DNA from: a virus | Taxonomy: Duplodnaviria > Heunggongvirae > Uroviricota > Caudoviricetes | Length of the DNA stretch: 4,202 nucleotides | Strand: one strand, 5' to 3' | IMG/VR virus record: IMGVR_UViG_2541047432_000013 | Coordinates: 1-4,202 of that record | In this document: positions 1-4,202 of the stretch, in pieces | How the letters are laid out: each line of letters starts with the position of its first letter | How positions within the stretch are numbered: position 1 is the stretch's first letter | Translations under genes and position numbers: made by a program | The notes under the pieces: model-generated | What the model was told of the DNA's origin: nothing | The model's database searches: none | Seen by the model: the letters and a program-made list of their open reading frames with translations, nothing else

Positions 1-116
1 GTCTGGCCGGTTCGGATTCGTACCTCGCAGAGGTCTTTCCTCGTTACCAGTGCCGTCACTATGACGGTTAAACAGATGACGATCAGGGCGATTAACATCG
101 CCTTTTGCTGCTTCAT
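1..116 (-). CDS. hokD: Hok/Gef-family type I toxin (small membrane-depolarising peptide); N-terminal 38 codons present, 3' end runs off the window start
   Basis: Minus-strand ATG at 116-114 translates to MKQQKAMLIALIVICLTVIVTALVTRKDLCEVRIRTGQT..., the Hok/Gef signature (hydrophobic TM segment then conserved RKDLCE). It matches HokD/RelF as I recall it; family call is firm, paralog call is from memory. AGGAG lies 9-10 nt upstream of the ATG. Confidence 0.85.
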   Translation of the reverse strand, partial: MKQQKAMLIALIVICLTVIVTALVTRKDLCEVRIRTGQ

Positions 117-173
117 AGCCTGCTTCTCCTTGCCTTTCGGCACGTAAGAGGCTAACCTACATGTGTTCAGCAT
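1..173 (-). CDS. mok-like overlapping regulatory ORF (in-frame 19-codon N-terminal extension of hok), partial
   Basis: In-frame upstream ATG at 173-171 gives MLNTCRLASYVPKGKEKQA before the Hok Met. The MLNTCR start resembles chromosomal Mok proteins (MokC, from memory). GAGG lies 8 nt upstream. No alternative-frame ORF with a start codon overlaps hok. Confidence 0.5.
   Translation of the reverse strand, partial: MLNTCRLASYVPKGKEKQAMKQQKAMLIALIVICLTVIVTALVTRKDLCEVRIRTGQ
130..158 (+). promoter_or_regulatory. Candidate sigma70 promoter for a Sok-like antisense RNA
   Basis: TTGCCT (130-135), 17-bp spacer, TAACCT (153-158) on the plus strand, antisense to the mok translation initiation region. 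The -10 is weak; this is a prediction only. Confidence 0.3.
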
Positions 174-243
174 GGATTGAGCCTCAGATTAATGTTAAGC
201 GTCTTGCAGGACGCGTAATGTTAACTGGGGCTTTTCTCTATCT
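165..243 (+). ncRNA. Predicted Sok-like antisense RNA covering the mok SD and start codon, ending in a terminator-like structure
   Basis: Plus-strand region complementary to the mok SD and ATG. Outer stem GCCTCAG (181-187) pairs with CTGGGGC (225-231) including one G-U pair; inner stem GCGTC/GACGC (199-214); then T-rich tract TTTTCTCTATCT (232-243). Ends are approximate. Confidence 0.3.
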
Positions 244-291
244 GCCGTTGGTGTTCATGCCCGAGGCAGATAGCCTCAAGCACCCGCAGCA

Positions 292-319
292 ATTCTACTT
301 AACTATCCTTTTCCCGCAA
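292..319 (-). promoter_or_regulatory. Candidate promoter for the hok/mok mRNA
   Basis: Minus-strand TTGCGG (319-314), 16-bp spacer, TAGAAT (297-292), about 110 nt upstream of the mok start, consistent with the long leader of hok mRNAs. Prediction only. Confidence 0.3.
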
Positions 320-406
320 ACCGTTTTTATCCCCAGCGGCAAATCGAATACACCACCAGCGCCACCGCCATCGCAATTCCTACCGTTGTGAATGCTTCAG
401 GCCAGG

Positions 407-964
407 TCATTGATTCACCTCCTGCGGCGGTTCTGGTAGCGACATCCAGTGGGTTGCTTGCCTAAGATCATTACCCGGACTAACTGCTATACCTCCGCGC
501 CGGAACGTGCCTCCGAGATAGCGTGCGGAATATATTAATGGCCCAGCCTCGCTATCGATATTCATCGAAATAAGCACGTTCTGGCTCTTTTCAGGCATTC
601 GCTCAGTACAGCTTATCCAGCCATCCAGAGTTATCGGAGATCTGGTTGACGTTTCCGAGATTTCCCGAAAATTGTTGGTTGACGAATTCTTATTTTCCCG
701 AAAGTTTCCGGCCTGAAGCATGGCGACGCGGCAGGCGTTCCAGCCATCAGCATATGTTTTAGTTACACCGTCGAGATGGCAGGTAAGCAAATCCATTTCA
801 TCAGGCACTACCATTGCTATCGGCTCTGCTTCCAGTGATGCCAGCGCGATACGAAACACATTAGCCAGCAGGCTGTCTGAAGACTTGTTATCGTGCGCCG
901 AGTCGCTCAGGAAGCCTGTGATGTATGATTTAATCTCCGCGCGTTCTCTGGTAATAGTGCTCAT
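407..964 (-). CDS. Phage protein with C-terminal DUF551-type domain (function unknown) and a distinct N-terminal region
   Basis: 185-aa ORF, ATG at 964 with AAGGA 8 nt upstream. C-terminus DGWISCTERMPEK...ATHWMSLPEPPQ matches the DUF551 hallmark (THWMPLPEPP) as I recall it. Its start lies 1 nt after the stop of the upstream ORF (TGATATG). Confidence 0.75.
   Translation of the reverse strand: MSTITRERAEIKSYITGFLSDSAHDNKSSDSLLANVFRIALASLEAEPIAMVVPDEMDLLTCHLDGVTKTYADGWNACRVAMLQAGNFRENKNSSTNNFREISETSTRSPITLDGWISCTERMPEKSQNVLISMNIDSEAGPLIYSARYLGGTFRRGGIAVSPGNDLRQATHWMSLPEPPQEVNQ
644..709. repeat. Imperfect 33-bp tandem duplication inside the DUF551 gene, encoding an 11-aa tandem linker repeat
   Basis: Unit 1 (644-676) GGTTGACGTTTCCGAGATTTCCCGAAAATTGTT and unit 2 (677-709) GGTTGACGAATTCTTATTTTCCCGAAAGTTTCC. 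They encode NFRENKNSSTN / NFREISETSTR on the minus strand. Near-palindromic TTTCCCGAAA cores. Confidence 0.7.
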
Positions 965-1311: not shown

Positions 1312-1623
1312 TTATGCTTCAGCCTTATTTCGCAACCAGACACAAACCGGGCCATCTTCCGTATCATGAATGGAACCAATAAACCAGCCATCGCCCTCTG
1401 GTCGTTCCGGTTCCCATGCAGAAATATCAGCATCACACGCATCAAGGTCAGCACATCCTTCATCTCTGAAGCAGAGGACGTATTGAAGATTATTTTCCTC
1501 CATCCAGGCGTTAAACTCTTCCGTTGAAATATATTCCCGACCATCACAGAATTTTTCATATTCAGGATGCGTCCAGCAGCCATATTCATTACGTTCCACT
1601 GGCATTTCTTTAATTACGCTCAT
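1312..1623 (-). CDS. Highly acidic small phage protein (103 aa), function unknown
   Basis: ATG at 1623 with GGGGG 3 nt upstream. ATGA overlap with the stop of the upstream ORF. 16 Glu + 9 Asp versus 8 Lys/Arg (hand count), 5 Trp, 6 Cys. Confidence 0.7.
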   Translation of the reverse strand: MSVIKEMPVERNEYGCWTHPEYEKFCDGREYISTEEFNAWMEENNLQYVLCFRDEGCADLDACDADISAWEPERPEGDGWFIGSIHDTEDGPVCVWLRNKAEA

Positions 1624-1808
1624 TTACCCCCCTTATTTAATTTTCTACGACACTTTTTACAATCATCTGGACTTTCGAATGTATCCGGCTCACGCTCATT
1701 GCCAAAATACATCCACCCACCGCAAATACTTGTTATTTCACCTTCAGCAAAATAATGATGTTTTTTCGCCATAAGTGGCCTTGCCCAGCCCGGATTCGTT
1801 TTACTCAC
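1620..1808 (-). CDS. Small Cys/His-containing protein (62 aa), possible zinc ribbon, function unknown
   Basis: GTG start at 1808 preceded by AAGGAGG with a 6-nt spacer. GTGA overlap with the upstream stop. HH at residues 17-18, Cys29 and C50-x-x-C53, basic C-terminal tail. Confidence 0.6.
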   Translation of the reverse strand: MSKTNPGWARPLMAKKHHYFAEGEITSICGGWMYFGNEREPDTFESPDDCKKCRRKLNKGGK

Positions 1809-2161
1809 TTGTTGCCTCCTTTGCGAAGCTCTGCGACTAACTCGTCACATATGTGCGTCAAAGAGCAAAGTTTGATTGCTGGATGTTCGCGCACCATCTC
1901 CACACCCTGCGCCCGCAATTCTGCCAGAAAAGCGTAGGGGTCAGTTTTTTCACTGTGGTACATGGCATCATAGATAATCATTGCAGCGACACCTGCCTGT
2001 CCTGCATCTGTGACGGATATATGCTCAAGGGCTACGGCCATTGCGTGTTTCAACCTCTCATTTTCCACCTCAAGCACCACACGATTAGCCTCCAGCTCTT
2101 CTATGCGTTTTTTTGCTGCTCCCAGCTCAACACGCAGCTCCTGATAGTTAATCTCGCTCAT
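1805..2161 (-). CDS. Coiled-coil phage protein, possibly ead/Ea22-like family
   Basis: ATG at 2161 preceded by GGAGGAAGGAGA. ATGA overlap with the upstream stop. N-terminal heptad-like segment (ELRVELGAAKKRIEELEANRVVLEVENERLKH) then a globular C-terminus. Family resemblance is from memory and weak. Confidence 0.65.
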   Translation of the reverse strand: MSEINYQELRVELGAAKKRIEELEANRVVLEVENERLKHAMAVALEHISVTDAGQAGVAAMIIYDAMYHSEKTDPYAFLAELRAQGVEMVREHPAIKLCSLTHICDELVAELRKGGNK

Positions 2162-2382
2162 TCTCCTTCCTCCCGCACTGCTGTTTTATATGCCCGAAGC
2201 ACATGCGATGTTTTTCCTGACACAGTGCTTCTCAGAAAGAAAATTCCACTGGTGTTTATTACCAGATACGGGTCAGCAAGACGCAGCATATCCAGTATGT
2301 GATTATGTTTTCTTGTTTCCAGCACCGTACTTGAAATAAGCATATGTGACACGGGGCCGAAATCATGATATCTGATTTTCAT
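2158..2382 (-). CDS. Small hypothetical phage protein (74 aa)
   Basis: ATG at 2382, 21 nt after the stop of the winged-helix gene; weak SD (GGGTGA). Its stop overlaps the next start (ATGA). Supported mainly by operon context. Confidence 0.5.
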   Translation of the reverse strand: MKIRYHDFGPVSHMLISSTVLETRKHNHILDMLRLADPYLVINTSGIFFLRSTVSGKTSHVLRAYKTAVREEGE

Positions 2383-2403
2383 ATCATCACCCTGCTGTAA
2401 AAA

Positions 2404-3114
2404 TTACCCGTTATCTCCTGTCGTTATTTTCTGTATGACATCACGATGCTTATTAATTTCCCGCAGCGCGGCGCATAAGCGCTCCCACTTCTGAACCTGA
2501 CCTTTTGCCCGGCGCAGCTCGCGGTTAGCCACATGCAGCGATGGTAAAATCAGACCATCCGGATGCTTTCTGATGAACGACGACTGTGACTGCACTGTGA
2601 CCGCCACACTTTCAGTTTTAATTTCTTCCTGTGTTTCCGCTTCCCGGACTGGTAACGCAACACCTGCCGGCTGAGGAAAGGCTTTACCATCGGTTTCCGT
2701 TACCGATGCAGCTTTCGGCTCTGCCGGTAAATTATCGCCCGGTATGCAGTAACGATATTTACCGTCCTGATTTACGCGAATCAGACGACCTTTGCTGACA
2801 GCCATCGCCAGTGATGAATTCGCCCGGCGGGAGGTAATCCCGAACATTAACGCCAGTTCGTCCGCCGTTTGTGGGCCATGATGTTCAATCGCCTCAGTCA
2901 GCATTTGCGCTGTCACTTTCGGTACCGGTGACACTGGTTCACTTTCACCAGTCTGAGTCAGCCACCACATCGACCCCTTGTTATCCGCTTCACCACGGCG
3001 CTTCAGTTTCCACAGTTCGTTGACAGCATCTTCGCGGCTGATTCCAAGGCGCGATGCCACTACCTGTGAAGAGGCTTTTTTCAGTGCTTTCAGTGCGTCA
3101 AATACGGTTTCCAT
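2404..3114 (-). CDS. Phage protein with two tandem winged-helix-like (MarR-like) units and a C-terminal coiled-coil; possibly DUF1627-type
   Basis: True start is taken as ATG 3114 (GGAGG 8 nt upstream), not the in-frame TTG at 3132 used by the ORF track. Two similar units: ...[29 protein letters not shown]... and ...[32 protein letters not shown].... Occupies the position of ren in lambda. Confidence 0.75.
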
Positions 3115-3147
3115 TAATATTTCCTCCGACAAAATCGTTTCTCAGAT

Positions 3148-3810
3148 TCAAATAAAACCAGCTGCCTTCCGGCGTTCGTATTCCTGTTTCAGCCGTTCAA
3201 TTGGCGTTGGCCCTTGCGGGTGTTTCGCCCCTTCCAGTTGTCGTCGCACTGGCGGAACACTCATCCCGTTACCAACATGCTTTGCCCATTTCGTCAGTTG
3301 CCGTTCCGCAAGTCGTTTTAACTCACCTTGCGTCATCTGGCGCTCAATCCCTCTGGTACGCATTTCGAGGCAGATGTGGTACAGCACAGGCTGTGGCCAC
3401 GGGTATTTATCACTCCCGTCGTATCGCCAGGATTCATTGCGCCAGCGCCGGTACTCTTCCATCACGGCATCCACCGTAAGACCAAATGGATTTGCCCCAC
3501 TCTCCGAAATCAGCGCAACAAACTCAGCCAGGTCCGGGGGCCACGTTTCACCCGCCCGGCAGCGGTCCATGCACTGACGGCACACCAGACGGATTTGCTG
3601 TTCAGTCATCGCACCAATCTGGGCAATCCAGAGCTTCGAAGGTGCGGCCCCGTTCTTCTGAGTCCAGCGGTTCGAATACACCTCCCCCATGAGCTCCCAC
3701 AGCTTCCAGGCCGTTTCCGTTGCTGATAAATCCGTTGTCACGTTCCCACTGTTCGCGTGCAGCCCGGATTTCCTGAACTGCCCGTGATGCCGTGCCACCT
3801 GATGCTGCAT
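3148..3810 (-). CDS. Lambda P-like replication protein (replicative helicase loader); start codon uncertain
   Basis: Resembles lambda P as I recall it: TWPPDLAEFVALI versus PFLPSPGQFVAWC, and YPWPQPVLYHICLEMRTRGIERQMTQGELKRLAERQL versus YPWKSNAHYWLVTNLYQNMRANALTDAELRRKAADEL. ATG 3810 has a G-rich SD; alternative ATG at 3690 has GGGAG 3 nt upstream. Confidence 0.8.
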   Translation of the reverse strand: MQHQVARHHGQFRKSGLHANSGNVTTDLSATETAWKLWELMGEVYSNRWTQKNGAAPSKLWIAQIGAMTEQQIRLVCRQCMDRCRAGETWPPDLAEFVALISESGANPFGLTVDAVMEEYRRWRNESWRYDGSDKYPWPQPVLYHICLEMRTRGIERQMTQGELKRLAERQLTKWAKHVGNGMSVPPVRRQLEGAKHPQGPTPIERLKQEYERRKAAGFI

Positions 3811-4195
3811 GGCTTCCCCCCTTGCTGACTGGTTTTACCTGTGCCCTGACGTGCTGCACGTGGCGGGCAAATTTCTGCTCCCACTGAACCTGCGTGAAAA
3901 CCTTCCCCTCCGCCATCCAGTAATCCCGGAATGCGGCAAGCTCAGCAGGTGTAAATTCCGGCTCAGGCAGAGCCATACCCCACACTGCTGCCCGTTGTCG
4001 AAAATCCGGCGACGGCTGCCAGACAGTAGTCATCGAAAATTTCCCGATCGGTTCGCTCAGGCCGTCCAGGTATTCAGGTTCGGCTGTCTGCAACGGCGCG
4101 TCATTCGACTCACTGGTCGTAGTACTCTCGCGCGCGTTATGTGTGGGGTTTAATTCTTTATCTGTATCTGTATCTGTCGTGATTTGTCGTGACAT
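3602..4195 (-). CDS. DnaT-domain replication-initiator-like protein (phi80/Gifsy-type replication protein); 5' end may extend beyond the window
   Basis: GKFSMTTVWQPSPDFRQRAAVWGMALPEPEFTPAELAAFRDYWMAEGKVFTQVQWEQKFARHV matches the E. coli DnaT C-terminal domain ([29 protein letters not shown]...[23 protein letters not shown], recalled). Frame is open from ATG 4195 to the window end, so the true start cannot be fixed. Confidence 0.8.
   Translation of the reverse strand: MSRQITTDTDTDKELNPTHNARESTTTSESNDAPLQTAEPEYLDGLSEPIGKFSMTTVWQPSPDFRQRAAVWGMALPEPEFTPAELAAFRDYWMAEGKVFTQVQWEQKFARHVQHVRAQVKPVSKGGSHAASGGTASRAVQEIRAAREQWERDNGFISNGNGLEAVGAHGGGVFEPLDSEERGRTFEALDCPDWCDD
4160..4192. repeat. Short tandem repeats at the 5' end of the DnaT-like ORF
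   Basis: ATCTGT x3 (4160-4177) followed by GTCGTGA x2 at 10-bp spacing (4176-4182, 4186-4192). Encodes (TD)3 on the minus strand. Confidence 0.6.
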
Positions 4196-4202
4196 ATGCG
4201 TG

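What the first reader, a model, noticed from the sequence alone, without database searches (positions are those of the whole stretch)
1..320. Apparently intact hok/mok/sok-type type I toxin-antitoxin locus next to the phage accessory cassette
The Hok peptide is unmistakable, and the upstream region carries the expected parts. There is an in-frame mok-like extension starting MLNTCR with its own SD, a candidate promoter about 110 nt upstream, and an antisense candidate promoter with a terminator-like nested hairpin and U-tract covering the mok initiation region. K-12 hokD, as I recall, sits downstream of relE without these elements, so this may be a complete, active copy in a different context.
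Basis: partly seen in the sequence, partly recalled or inferred. Interest (0 to 1): 0.5.

Follow-up and report, generated by a model that had tools for sequence, protein, structure and literature searches.

The report
Prophage hok/mok/sok toxin-antitoxin locus

Summary
The minus strand carries a Hok toxin gene (ATG at 116, cut by the window edge after 38 codons). It also carries an in-frame mok extension (ATG 173, MLNTCR...) and the whole hok mRNA leader (5' end about 285). The leader matches Rfam RF01794 at 113.5 bits (threshold 59). The plus strand carries a Sok antisense RNA gene (about 165-241) with its own promoter and a long hairpin followed by a U-tract.

K-12 hokD shares only window 1-130.

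The unit is not new. It differs at 3 of 285 bases from the copy in an Sp5/933W-like Stx2 phage. Every published hokW-sokW primer that falls inside the window matches exactly. Hok toxicity and Sok antitoxin activity were shown experimentally for that locus (Takada 2021). Copies that include the mok/sok region occur in about 74% of complete E. coli genomes.

The hok 3' end and the fbi element lie outside the window. In all 28 phage contigs that share the window's sequence at both ends of the unit, hok is an intact 51-codon gene. The closest contig (284/285) also has fbi and a terminator.

Verdict: interpretation supported, already known, low interest.

The parts
1..116 (-). hok toxin gene, first 38 codons plus 2 nt (ATG at 116-114); the rest runs off the left edge
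   Evidence: Translation. Pfam HOK_GEF 61 bits. Window 1-200 is 100% identical to genes annotated hokD in many E. coli genomes.
126..130 (-). hok Shine-Dalgarno sequence AGGAG; homology with K-12 hokD ends here (130/131)
   Evidence: Read from the sequence. K-12 is identical over window 1-130 only.
117..173 (-). mok-specific extension of 19 codons (MLNTCRLASYVPKGKEKQA), in frame with hok, so Mok is a 70-aa N-terminally extended Hok
   Evidence: Same 57-nt in-frame layout as the annotated K-12 mokC/hokC. A 70-aa in-frame mok is present in all 28 related phage contigs.
182..185 (-). mok Shine-Dalgarno sequence GAGG
   Evidence: Read from the sequence. In the full-length fold it pairs with ucb, leaving one A unpaired. 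In the RNAalifold consensus of related leaders it pairs with dcb.
274..285 (-). 5' end of hok mRNA with the tac element GGGUGCUUGAGG
   Evidence: Start of the RF01794 match. Pairs with fbi in full-length folds built with the 3' ends of close relatives.
257..267 (-). partner of tac in the early (metastable) 5' hairpin
   Evidence: Folds of the first 40 nt and of the leader.
227..233 (-). ucb (anti-Shine-Dalgarno for mok), AAGCCCC; pairs with mok SD in the closed form and with tac in the open form
188..226 (-). AU-rich stem with a nested GC hairpin (GCGUC-CUGCAA-GACGC, 214..199); includes an 18-nt insertion relative to K-12 hokC
   Evidence: Insertion seen against the Rfam consensus and against hokC, hokB and hokE. 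Folds.
148..154 (-). dcb (UAGCCUC); pairs with the mok SD or the hok SD region in alternative folds
   Evidence: Consensus folds. Rfam structure.
292..320 (-). candidate hok promoter: -10 TAGAAT (297..292) and weak -35 TTTGCG (320..315)
   Evidence: Position relative to the RF01794 start. K-12 hokC has TATAAT in the same alignment columns. Below the threshold of the consensus scan. Inferred, not mapped.
130..158 (+). Sok promoter: -35 TTGCCT (130-135), 17-nt spacer, -10 TAACCT (153-158)
   Evidence: The mutagenic primer of the published sokW promoter-less construct matches this site apart from 4 changes, three inside this -10 and one just after it.
165..241 (+). Sok antisense RNA, about 77 nt: free 14-nt 5' tail (165-178) covering the mok start codon, hairpin 179-233, then a U-rich tail
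   Evidence: Transfer of the K-12 sokC annotation through the alignment. Fold -30 kcal/mol, z -5.0, 0 of 200 shuffles as stable. The published sokW Northern probe matches window 165-194 exactly.

Best explanation
Window 1-320 is the 5' three-quarters of a hok/mok/sok type I toxin-antitoxin module carried as a moron in a lambdoid prophage. It has a HokD-type toxin and a hokW-sokW-type leader.

Mechanism, inferred from the R1 hok/sok model and the folds made here:
- A weak promoter starts a roughly 410-nt hok mRNA at about 285 on the minus strand.
- In the full-length RNA, the 5' tac element pairs with fbi at the 3' end, and ucb covers the mok Shine-Dalgarno sequence, so nothing is translated.
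- Slow 3' trimming removes fbi. tac can then pair with ucb, which frees the mok Shine-Dalgarno sequence.
- Ribosomes translating mok then give Hok. Here mok is in frame, so Mok is an extended Hok. Hok is a 51-aa inner-membrane toxin.
- From the other strand, a stronger promoter inside mok makes the unstable Sok RNA of about 77 nt (165-241). Its free 5' tail pairs with the mok start region, blocks mok translation and exposes the duplex to RNase III.
- When Sok supply stops, the stable mRNA pool is translated and the cell is damaged.

In the prophage setting, the demonstrated consequence for the near-identical hokW-sokW is that prophage induction removes Sok, HokW appears before endolysin, and phage release roughly doubles.

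Shown here: identity of the parts, their conservation, and thermodynamic compatibility with the switch. Inferred: transcript ends, 3' processing, coupling of mok and hok translation, toxicity, and the biological role for this particular copy.
For: - Family matches: Pfam HOK_GEF, PHROG 'MokW-like host killing', and full-length RF01794 at 113.5 bits.
- Alignment to the annotated K-12 mokC/hokC/sokC puts the mok ATG at 173, the hok ATG at 116 and Sok at 165-241.
- Sok folds into a free 5' tail plus a -30 kcal/mol hairpin, z -5.0.
- The unit differs from the Stx2 phage I (933W/Sp5-like) copy at 3 of 285 positions: one hairpin-loop base and two synonymous hok sites.
- All hokW-sokW primers and probes that fall within the window match it exactly. 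The only exception is the deliberately mutated -10 primer.
- For that locus, HokW toxicity, SokW antitoxin activity, partial dependence on RNase III and Hfq, and RecA-dependent HokW production are published.
- A full-length RNA built from the window's 285 nt plus the 3' end of the closest relative (L040, 284/285 identical) has a 12-bp tac/fbi stem and ucb/mok-SD pairing in its minimum-energy fold. After removal of fbi, the closed and open (tac/ucb) forms differ by only 0.2 kcal/mol.
- Across 9 or 20 related leaders, 9 or 7 predicted pairs keep pairing through changes on both sides.
- All 28 IMG/VR contigs sharing window 1-45 and 241-300 have an intact 51-codon hok and a 70-codon in-frame mok.
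Against: - The hok stop codon, fbi and terminator are outside the window, and no contig identical to the whole window was found. Intactness of this copy is therefore extrapolated.
- Both promoters are weak matches to the sigma-70 consensus and were not called by the scan.
- Minimum-energy folding of the 3'-truncated RNA does not flip to the open form by itself. The open form is only iso-energetic.
- Chromosomal hok loci tested earlier (hokA, hokB, hokC) did not mediate post-segregational killing, as summarised. Presence of all parts therefore does not guarantee an addiction phenotype.
Confidence: 0.9

Rival explanations
1. A decayed, non-functional relic: the regulatory 5' part is intact, but the copy is inactivated downstream (truncated hok, lost fbi, IS insertion), as for the five K-12 hok loci.
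For: The K-12 copies are all inactivated by IS elements, point mutation or rearrangement. K-12 hokA, hokC and hokE have an IS next to them. Two R1-type plasmid copies picked at random also had IS elements close upstream of hok, and in L030 the IS replaces the 5' part of the leader. The window stops at hok codon 38.
Against: All 28 phage contigs with the same end sequences have an intact hok. The closest one (1 mismatch in 285) has fbi and a terminator. The 38 visible codons are identical to functional HokD, which the cited preprint lists among the previously characterised toxic controls used to validate its toxicity assay.
Confidence: 0.06
2. Same module, different main role. It may act chiefly as a prophage-retention (addiction) device, or as an abortive-infection defence against other phages, rather than as a helper of lysis on induction.
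For: R1 hok/sok stabilises plasmids and reduces T4 plating. hok genes are four-fold enriched in prophages.
Against: The only direct experiment on this sequence type showed help with phage release. The chromosomal loci tested did not give post-segregational killing. Nothing in the sequence separates these roles, and they are not mutually exclusive.
Confidence: 0.3
3. The conserved plus-strand ORF 161-391 (76 aa, phrog_7511) is a real protein gene, and the conservation of this region is due to it.
For: It matches a PHROG family end to end at E 8e-53. It is annotated as an ORF in Stx2 phage I (ORF-38).
Against: It lies exactly antisense to the hok leader and Sok, which explain the conservation. 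It has no Pfam match. RefSeq does not call it in the related loci. The PHROG family is most simply a collection of the same over-called antisense ORF.
Confidence: 0.03

Closest known systems
hokW-sokW of Sakai prophage 5 / 933W-like Stx2 phages (Takada et al. 2021, PMC8621323)
   Same: The leader, mok, Sok promoter, Sok RNA and the first 38 hok codons are essentially identical: 3 differences in 285 nt against Stx2 phage I. All published primers within range match exactly. The upstream flank is the same (DUF551 gene and a 27-aa ORF).
   Different: The two hok differences are synonymous and match the hokD allele. The C-terminus is therefore probably ...TAYEPEE (HokD) rather than ...VDYESEK (HokW). 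In the window the module sits between the replication genes and the Q region. In Stx2 phage I it sits near attP and the tail-fibre end.
K-12 hokD (relF) in the Qin cryptic prophage
   Same: Identical DNA over window 1-130: the hok coding part and its Shine-Dalgarno sequence. In relatives the Hok protein is the same.
   Different: K-12 has relB-relE directly upstream and lacks mok, Sok, tac and ucb. It gives no RF01794 hit.
K-12 hokC/mokC/sokC (gef)
   Same: Same architecture. mok is in frame, 57 nt upstream, and starts MLNTCR in the window; the aligned K-12 DNA encodes the same first five codons (ATGCTGAACACATGT, MLNTC). The first 9 nt of Sok are the same. RF01794 scores 118 bits for hokC against 113.5 for the window.
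   Different: About 76% DNA identity. The window type has an extra 18 nt forming a nested GC hairpin in the Sok/leader stem.
hok/mok/sok of plasmid R1 (the reference system)
   Same: The same set of elements (tac, fbi, ucb, mok SD, dcb, Sok tail plus hairpin) as defined in PMC9841398. The toxin is in the same Pfam family.
   Different: R1 mok is 58 nt upstream and out of frame, giving a distinct 70-aa product. HokW is 44% identical to R1 Hok. R1 is plasmid-borne, with a demonstrated post-segregational killing role.

Membership tests
hok/mok/sok type I toxin-antitoxin | Small hydrophobic Hok/Gef toxin (Pfam PF01848) | tested here: met
   61 bits, E 7e-17 on the 38 visible residues. phrog_251 'MokW-like host killing'.
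hok/mok/sok type I toxin-antitoxin | hok mRNA leader with the conserved sequence and structure (Rfam RF01794) | tested here: met
   Full-length match at 285..111 (minus), 113.5 bits against a gathering score of 59. Compensatory changes occur in related leaders.
hok/mok/sok type I toxin-antitoxin | mok reading frame with its own Shine-Dalgarno sequence, starting upstream of and overlapping hok | tested here: met
   ATG at 173 and GAGG at 185..182, 57 nt upstream and in frame, as in the annotated mokC. Translational coupling itself was not tested.
hok/mok/sok type I toxin-antitoxin | Cis-encoded antisense Sok RNA with its promoter inside mok, a free 5' tail over the mok start, and a terminator hairpin | tested here: met
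   Window 165-241 (+) by transfer of the sokC annotation. Fold z -5.0. The -10 element and the probe of the published sokW match. The RNA itself was not observed for this copy.
hok/mok/sok type I toxin-antitoxin | 5' tac element complementary to a 3' fbi element | tested here: inconclusive
   tac is present at 285..274. fbi lies outside the window. In the closest relatives fbi (CCTCAA[C/T]GCACCC) is present and forms a 12-bp stem with the window's tac.
hok/mok/sok type I toxin-antitoxin | ucb/mok-SD pairing (closed form) and the alternative tac/ucb and SD/dcb pairings (open form) | tested here: met
   Closed pairing appears in the full-length minimum-energy fold. The open form is the Rfam consensus and the RNAalifold structure. 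The two forms are iso-energetic after 3' truncation.
hok/mok/sok type I toxin-antitoxin | Toxin kills or arrests cells and Sok counteracts it; 3' processing activates the mRNA | not testable with these tools
   Toxicity and antitoxin activity are published for the near-identical hokW-sokW. Whether its shorter RNAs are the processed form was left open by the authors.
Truncated hokD (relF) arrangement of K-12 | hok directly downstream of relBE, without mok, Sok and tac | tested here: not met
   The window keeps the complete leader upstream of position 130, where K-12 diverges into relE.

The most novel reading that the evidence does not exclude
The locus may be placed so that induction-dependent early transcription reads through it in the hok-sense direction. 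In the window type that transcription comes from pR, through the replication genes towards Q. In Sp5-like phages it comes from pL, through int and attP after circularisation. Such read-through would collide head-on with the Sok promoter and silence it. That would explain the unexplained RecA-dependent disappearance of sokW RNA on induction.

Separately, the variation concentrated at window 161-180 (the Sok 5' tail and mok codons 2-6) could reflect selection for non-cross-reacting Sok/hok pairs among the 2-11 copies per genome.
Probability: 0.3. Interest if true: 0.4.

Novelty: already known. Interest (0 to 1): 0.1.

Why it matters
It matters little beyond correct annotation. [quoted passage not shown] Copies that include the mok/sok region are present in about three quarters of complete E. 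coli genomes.

The result is useful mainly as a reminder that RefSeq-style annotation records only 'Hok/Gef family protein' and omits mok, Sok and the neighbouring 27-aa ORF. It also shows that the truncated K-12 hokD is not representative of the locus.

Tried and rejected
1. The simple promoter and terminator scan of 1-700 found nothing within 1-330. Both promoters score 7-8 of 12, and the Sok terminator stem is too long and nested for the scan's rules. The scan therefore neither supports nor refutes them.

2. I tried to find the exact source contig, to read the hok 3' end directly. The attempts were megablast of the whole window against complete E. coli genomes and phages, exact look-ups of two window proteins, and an exact two-anchor pattern scan of IMG/VR. 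No record is identical over the whole window, which is a mosaic. The 3' end therefore had to be taken from relatives.

3. I fetched the early region of Sakai Sp5 expecting hokW there. It had no match. In the 933W-like Stx2 phage I the locus is near attP.

4. Minimum-energy folding of 3'-truncated RNAs did not switch to the open form. Only constrained folding showed the two forms to be iso-energetic.

5. The R1-type plasmid examples fetched for comparison (L030, L031) have IS elements close upstream of hok, and in L030 the IS replaces the 5' leader. Their lack of an RF01794 hit is therefore uninformative, and they were used only for the mok frame.

6. The weak Rfam hits to ceN48 and G-CSF_SLDE are far below threshold and were rejected as chance.

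Full report
**What is in the sequence**

The feature is real. hok and mok lie on the minus strand of window 1-320, and Sok lies on the plus strand.

- Reading 173..1 on the minus strand gives MLNTCRLASYVPKGKEKQA followed by MKQQKAMLIALIVICLTVIVTALVTRKDLCEVRIRTGQ, and then the window ends.
- The 38 Hok residues score 61 bits against Pfam HOK_GEF. The longer frame hits PHROG phrog_251, named 'MokW-like host killing'.
- A scan of the whole window against Rfam gives one strong match. RF01794 ('sok') matches 285..111 on the minus strand over the full model, at 113.5 bits against a gathering score of 59, E 3e-26.
- That model is written in the hok-sense direction and ends at the hok AUG. It therefore describes the hok mRNA leader to which Sok is antisense.

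**Anatomy of the mRNA**

I number the mRNA from window 285, taken as position 1.

| Element | mRNA position | Window coordinates (minus strand) |
|---|---|---|
| tac, GGGUGCUUGAGG | 1-12 | 285..274 |
| Partner for an early 5' hairpin | 19-29 | 267..257 |
| ucb, AAGCCCC | 53-59 | 233..227 |
| AU-rich stem with nested GC hairpin | 60-98 | 226..188 |
| mok Shine-Dalgarno, GAGG | 101-104 | 185..182 |
| mok AUG | 113 | 173 |
| dcb, UAGCCUC | 132-138 | 154..148 |
| hok Shine-Dalgarno, AGGAG | 156-160 | 130..126 |
| hok AUG | 170 | 116 |

These assignments come, using the element definitions in PMC9841398.

Upstream lie a good -10 (TAGAAT, 297..292) and a poor -35 (TTTGCG, 320..315). K-12 hokC has TATAAT in the same alignment columns.

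**Anatomy of Sok**

- On the plus strand, the Sok promoter is TTGCCT (130-135), a 17-nt spacer, then TAACCT (153-158).
- Carrying the RefSeq sokC annotation across the alignment places Sok at 165-241.
- This RNA folds into a free 14-nt 5' tail covering the mok start codon, followed by a hairpin at 179-233. The fold is -30 kcal/mol with z -5.0, and none of 200 shuffles was as stable. UUUUCUCUAU follows the hairpin.
- Neither promoter reaches the threshold of the consensus scan. Both rest on homology. The Sok promoter also rests on experiment, described below.

**Relatives**

- Window 1-200 is 100% identical to genes annotated hokD in many E. coli genomes, such as IHE3034.
- Window 1-330 is 99.4% identical to a copy in O157:H7 lambdoid prophages.
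- K-12 hokD is identical only over window 1-130. Upstream of the hok Shine-Dalgarno sequence it continues into relE, and it gives no RF01794 hit.
- K-12 is the exception. 4036 of 5426 complete genomes have a match covering at least 80% of window 1-200, which must include the mok/sok region. The median is 2 copies per genome and the maximum found in that search is 9; with the 420-nt query the maximum was 11.
- A 2009 review cites Pedersen and Gerdes 1999 for the point that all five K-12 hok loci are inactivated by IS elements, point mutation or rearrangement.

**Already characterised**

Takada et al. 2021 (PMC8621323) showed that hokW-sokW of Sakai prophage 5 is a working type I toxin-antitoxin system.

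- HokW arrests growth.
- SokW expressed from its own promoter prevents this. Mutating the sokW -10 restores toxicity, and SokW supplied in trans partly rescues it.
- Every primer or probe in that paper that falls inside the window matches it exactly. This includes the sokW Northern probe (window 165-194). The mutagenic -10 primer differs only at its four intended changes, at 153-159.
- Against the 933W-like Stx2 phage I, the 285-nt unit differs at three positions: one loop base of the nested hairpin and two synonymous hok sites.
- A recent survey found Hok in about 80% of Enterobacteriaceae genomes and reported a four-fold enrichment in prophages.

**The missing 3' end**

The hok stop codon, fbi and the terminator lie beyond the left edge. 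No record identical to the whole window was found.

- An exact scan of IMG/VR for window 1-45 and 241-300 at the right spacing found 28 phage contigs.
- All 28 have an intact 51-codon hok and a 70-codon in-frame mok. In 19 of them the protein is HokD (...TAYEPEE).
- The closest contig, L040, differs at 1 of 285 positions. It has fbi (CCTCAATGCACCC) and a rho-independent terminator.
- The two synonymous sites at window 7 and 21 match the hokD allele, not hokW.
- I therefore expect a HokD C-terminus and an intact gene, but this is extrapolation.

**How it most likely works**

- I built a full-length RNA from the window's 285 nt plus the 3' end of L040. Its minimum-energy fold has a 12-bp tac/fbi stem, with ucb paired to the mok Shine-Dalgarno sequence. 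The same result is seen with the IHE3034 3' end.
- With fbi removed, the best structure that has tac paired to ucb is only 0.2 kcal/mol above the closed one, and it frees most of the mok Shine-Dalgarno sequence.
- This agrees with the R1 model of a translationally silent full-length RNA that is activated by 3' trimming. Plain minimum-energy folding did not make the switch by itself.
- Consensus folding of 9 and of 20 related leaders recovers the tac/ucb stem, the internal hairpin and the pairings involving dcb. Of the predicted pairs, 9 and 7 respectively are kept through changes on both sides.
- mok is in frame here and in mokC, at 57 nt upstream. It is out of frame in R1 and mokB, at 58 nt upstream. 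In this subtype Mok is therefore simply a longer Hok.

**Setting and role**

- All window genes are on the minus strand, in this order: DnaT-like replication protein, lambda-P-like protein, DUF1627, several small phage ORFs, DUF4014, DUF551, a 27-aa ORF, then hok/sok.
- In related prophages the next genes are a BOF-family gene or small ORFs, then DUF968, RusA and a Q-type antiterminator.
- For hokW-sokW, prophage induction removes SokW in a RecA-dependent way. HokW appears about an hour before endolysin, and phage yield halves without the locus.
- Prophage retention and abortive infection remain possible additional roles. Sequence alone cannot separate them.

**Verdict**

The element is already known, so interest is low. 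The points worth recording are the unannotated Sok, mok and 27-aa ORF, the variable patch at the Sok 5' tail, and the consistent hok-sense orientation relative to early phage transcription.

Noticed in passing
window 327-410 (-): There is an unannotated 27-aa ORF, MTWPEAFTTVGIAMAVALVVYSICRWG, that is hydrophobic. Its ATG overlaps the TGA of the DUF551 gene (CAATGA). Stx2 phage I keeps it open despite 12 nt differences that change 6 residues. It has no Pfam or PHROG match. It is probably a real small membrane protein gene just upstream of the hok promoter.
   Followed up: partly
window 161-180 (both strands): Among 16 distinct leaders of this clade, 12 of these 20 positions vary, while most of the rest of the leader is nearly fixed. 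The patch covers the Sok 5' recognition tail and mok codons 2-6 (MLNTCR, MLYTRR, MLVTCR and others). This may reflect diversification of Sok/hok pairing specificity among co-resident copies.
   Followed up: partly
window 199-216: An 18-nt insertion relative to K-12 hokC forms a nested GC hairpin at the tip of the AU-rich stem, in both the hok leader and Sok; hokB and hokE lack this segment too, with a 20-nt gap in the alignment. In two phage contigs (L044, L046) the segment reads as the exact reverse complement of the window's version (GCGTCTTGCAGGACGC).
   Followed up: partly
window 161-391 (+): A 76-aa ORF antisense to the hok leader matches PHROG phrog_7511 end to end (E 8e-53) and is annotated in Stx2 phage I (ORF-38). 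It has no Pfam match. It is most likely an over-called ORF whose conservation comes from the RNA elements on both strands.
   Followed up: partly
L035 4497-5877 compared with window 1-964: The block DUF551, 27-aa ORF, hok/sok and BOF-family gene sits near attP and the tail-fibre end in the 933W-like Stx2 phage I. In the window and in O157 prophages it sits between the replication genes and the Q region. It behaves as a mobile moron block. In every context seen, hok points the same way as an early transcript (pR in the window type, pL through int and attP in the phage).
   Followed up: partly
window 1623-2459 and the whole window: The window is a mosaic. Positions 1-1622 and 2459-4202 are 97.7-99.2% identical to one O157 prophage type, and the middle segment comes from another type that is about 93% identical. 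No complete E. coli genome or phage record covers more than 80% of the window in one place.
   Followed up: partly
L030 1-340, L031 1-379, L028 2634-4076: IS elements lie close upstream of hok in two randomly picked R1-type plasmid copies (IS150 and ISKpn28); in L030 the IS replaces the 5' part of the leader. K-12 hokA has an IS150 inside its leader. Insertion next to or into hok leaders appears to be a recurrent way of disabling these loci.
   Followed up: no
L004 and L001, hok codon 47 (outside the window): Relatives carry a TAC Tyr codon within UACG near the hok 3' end. [quoted passage not shown] This could not be examined for the window copy.
   Followed up: no
L001 617-789 and L017 11939-12111: Rfam STnc100 sRNA matches (about 100 bits) lie downstream of the Q/tRNA region in the related O157 prophages. 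They are outside the window.
   Followed up: no
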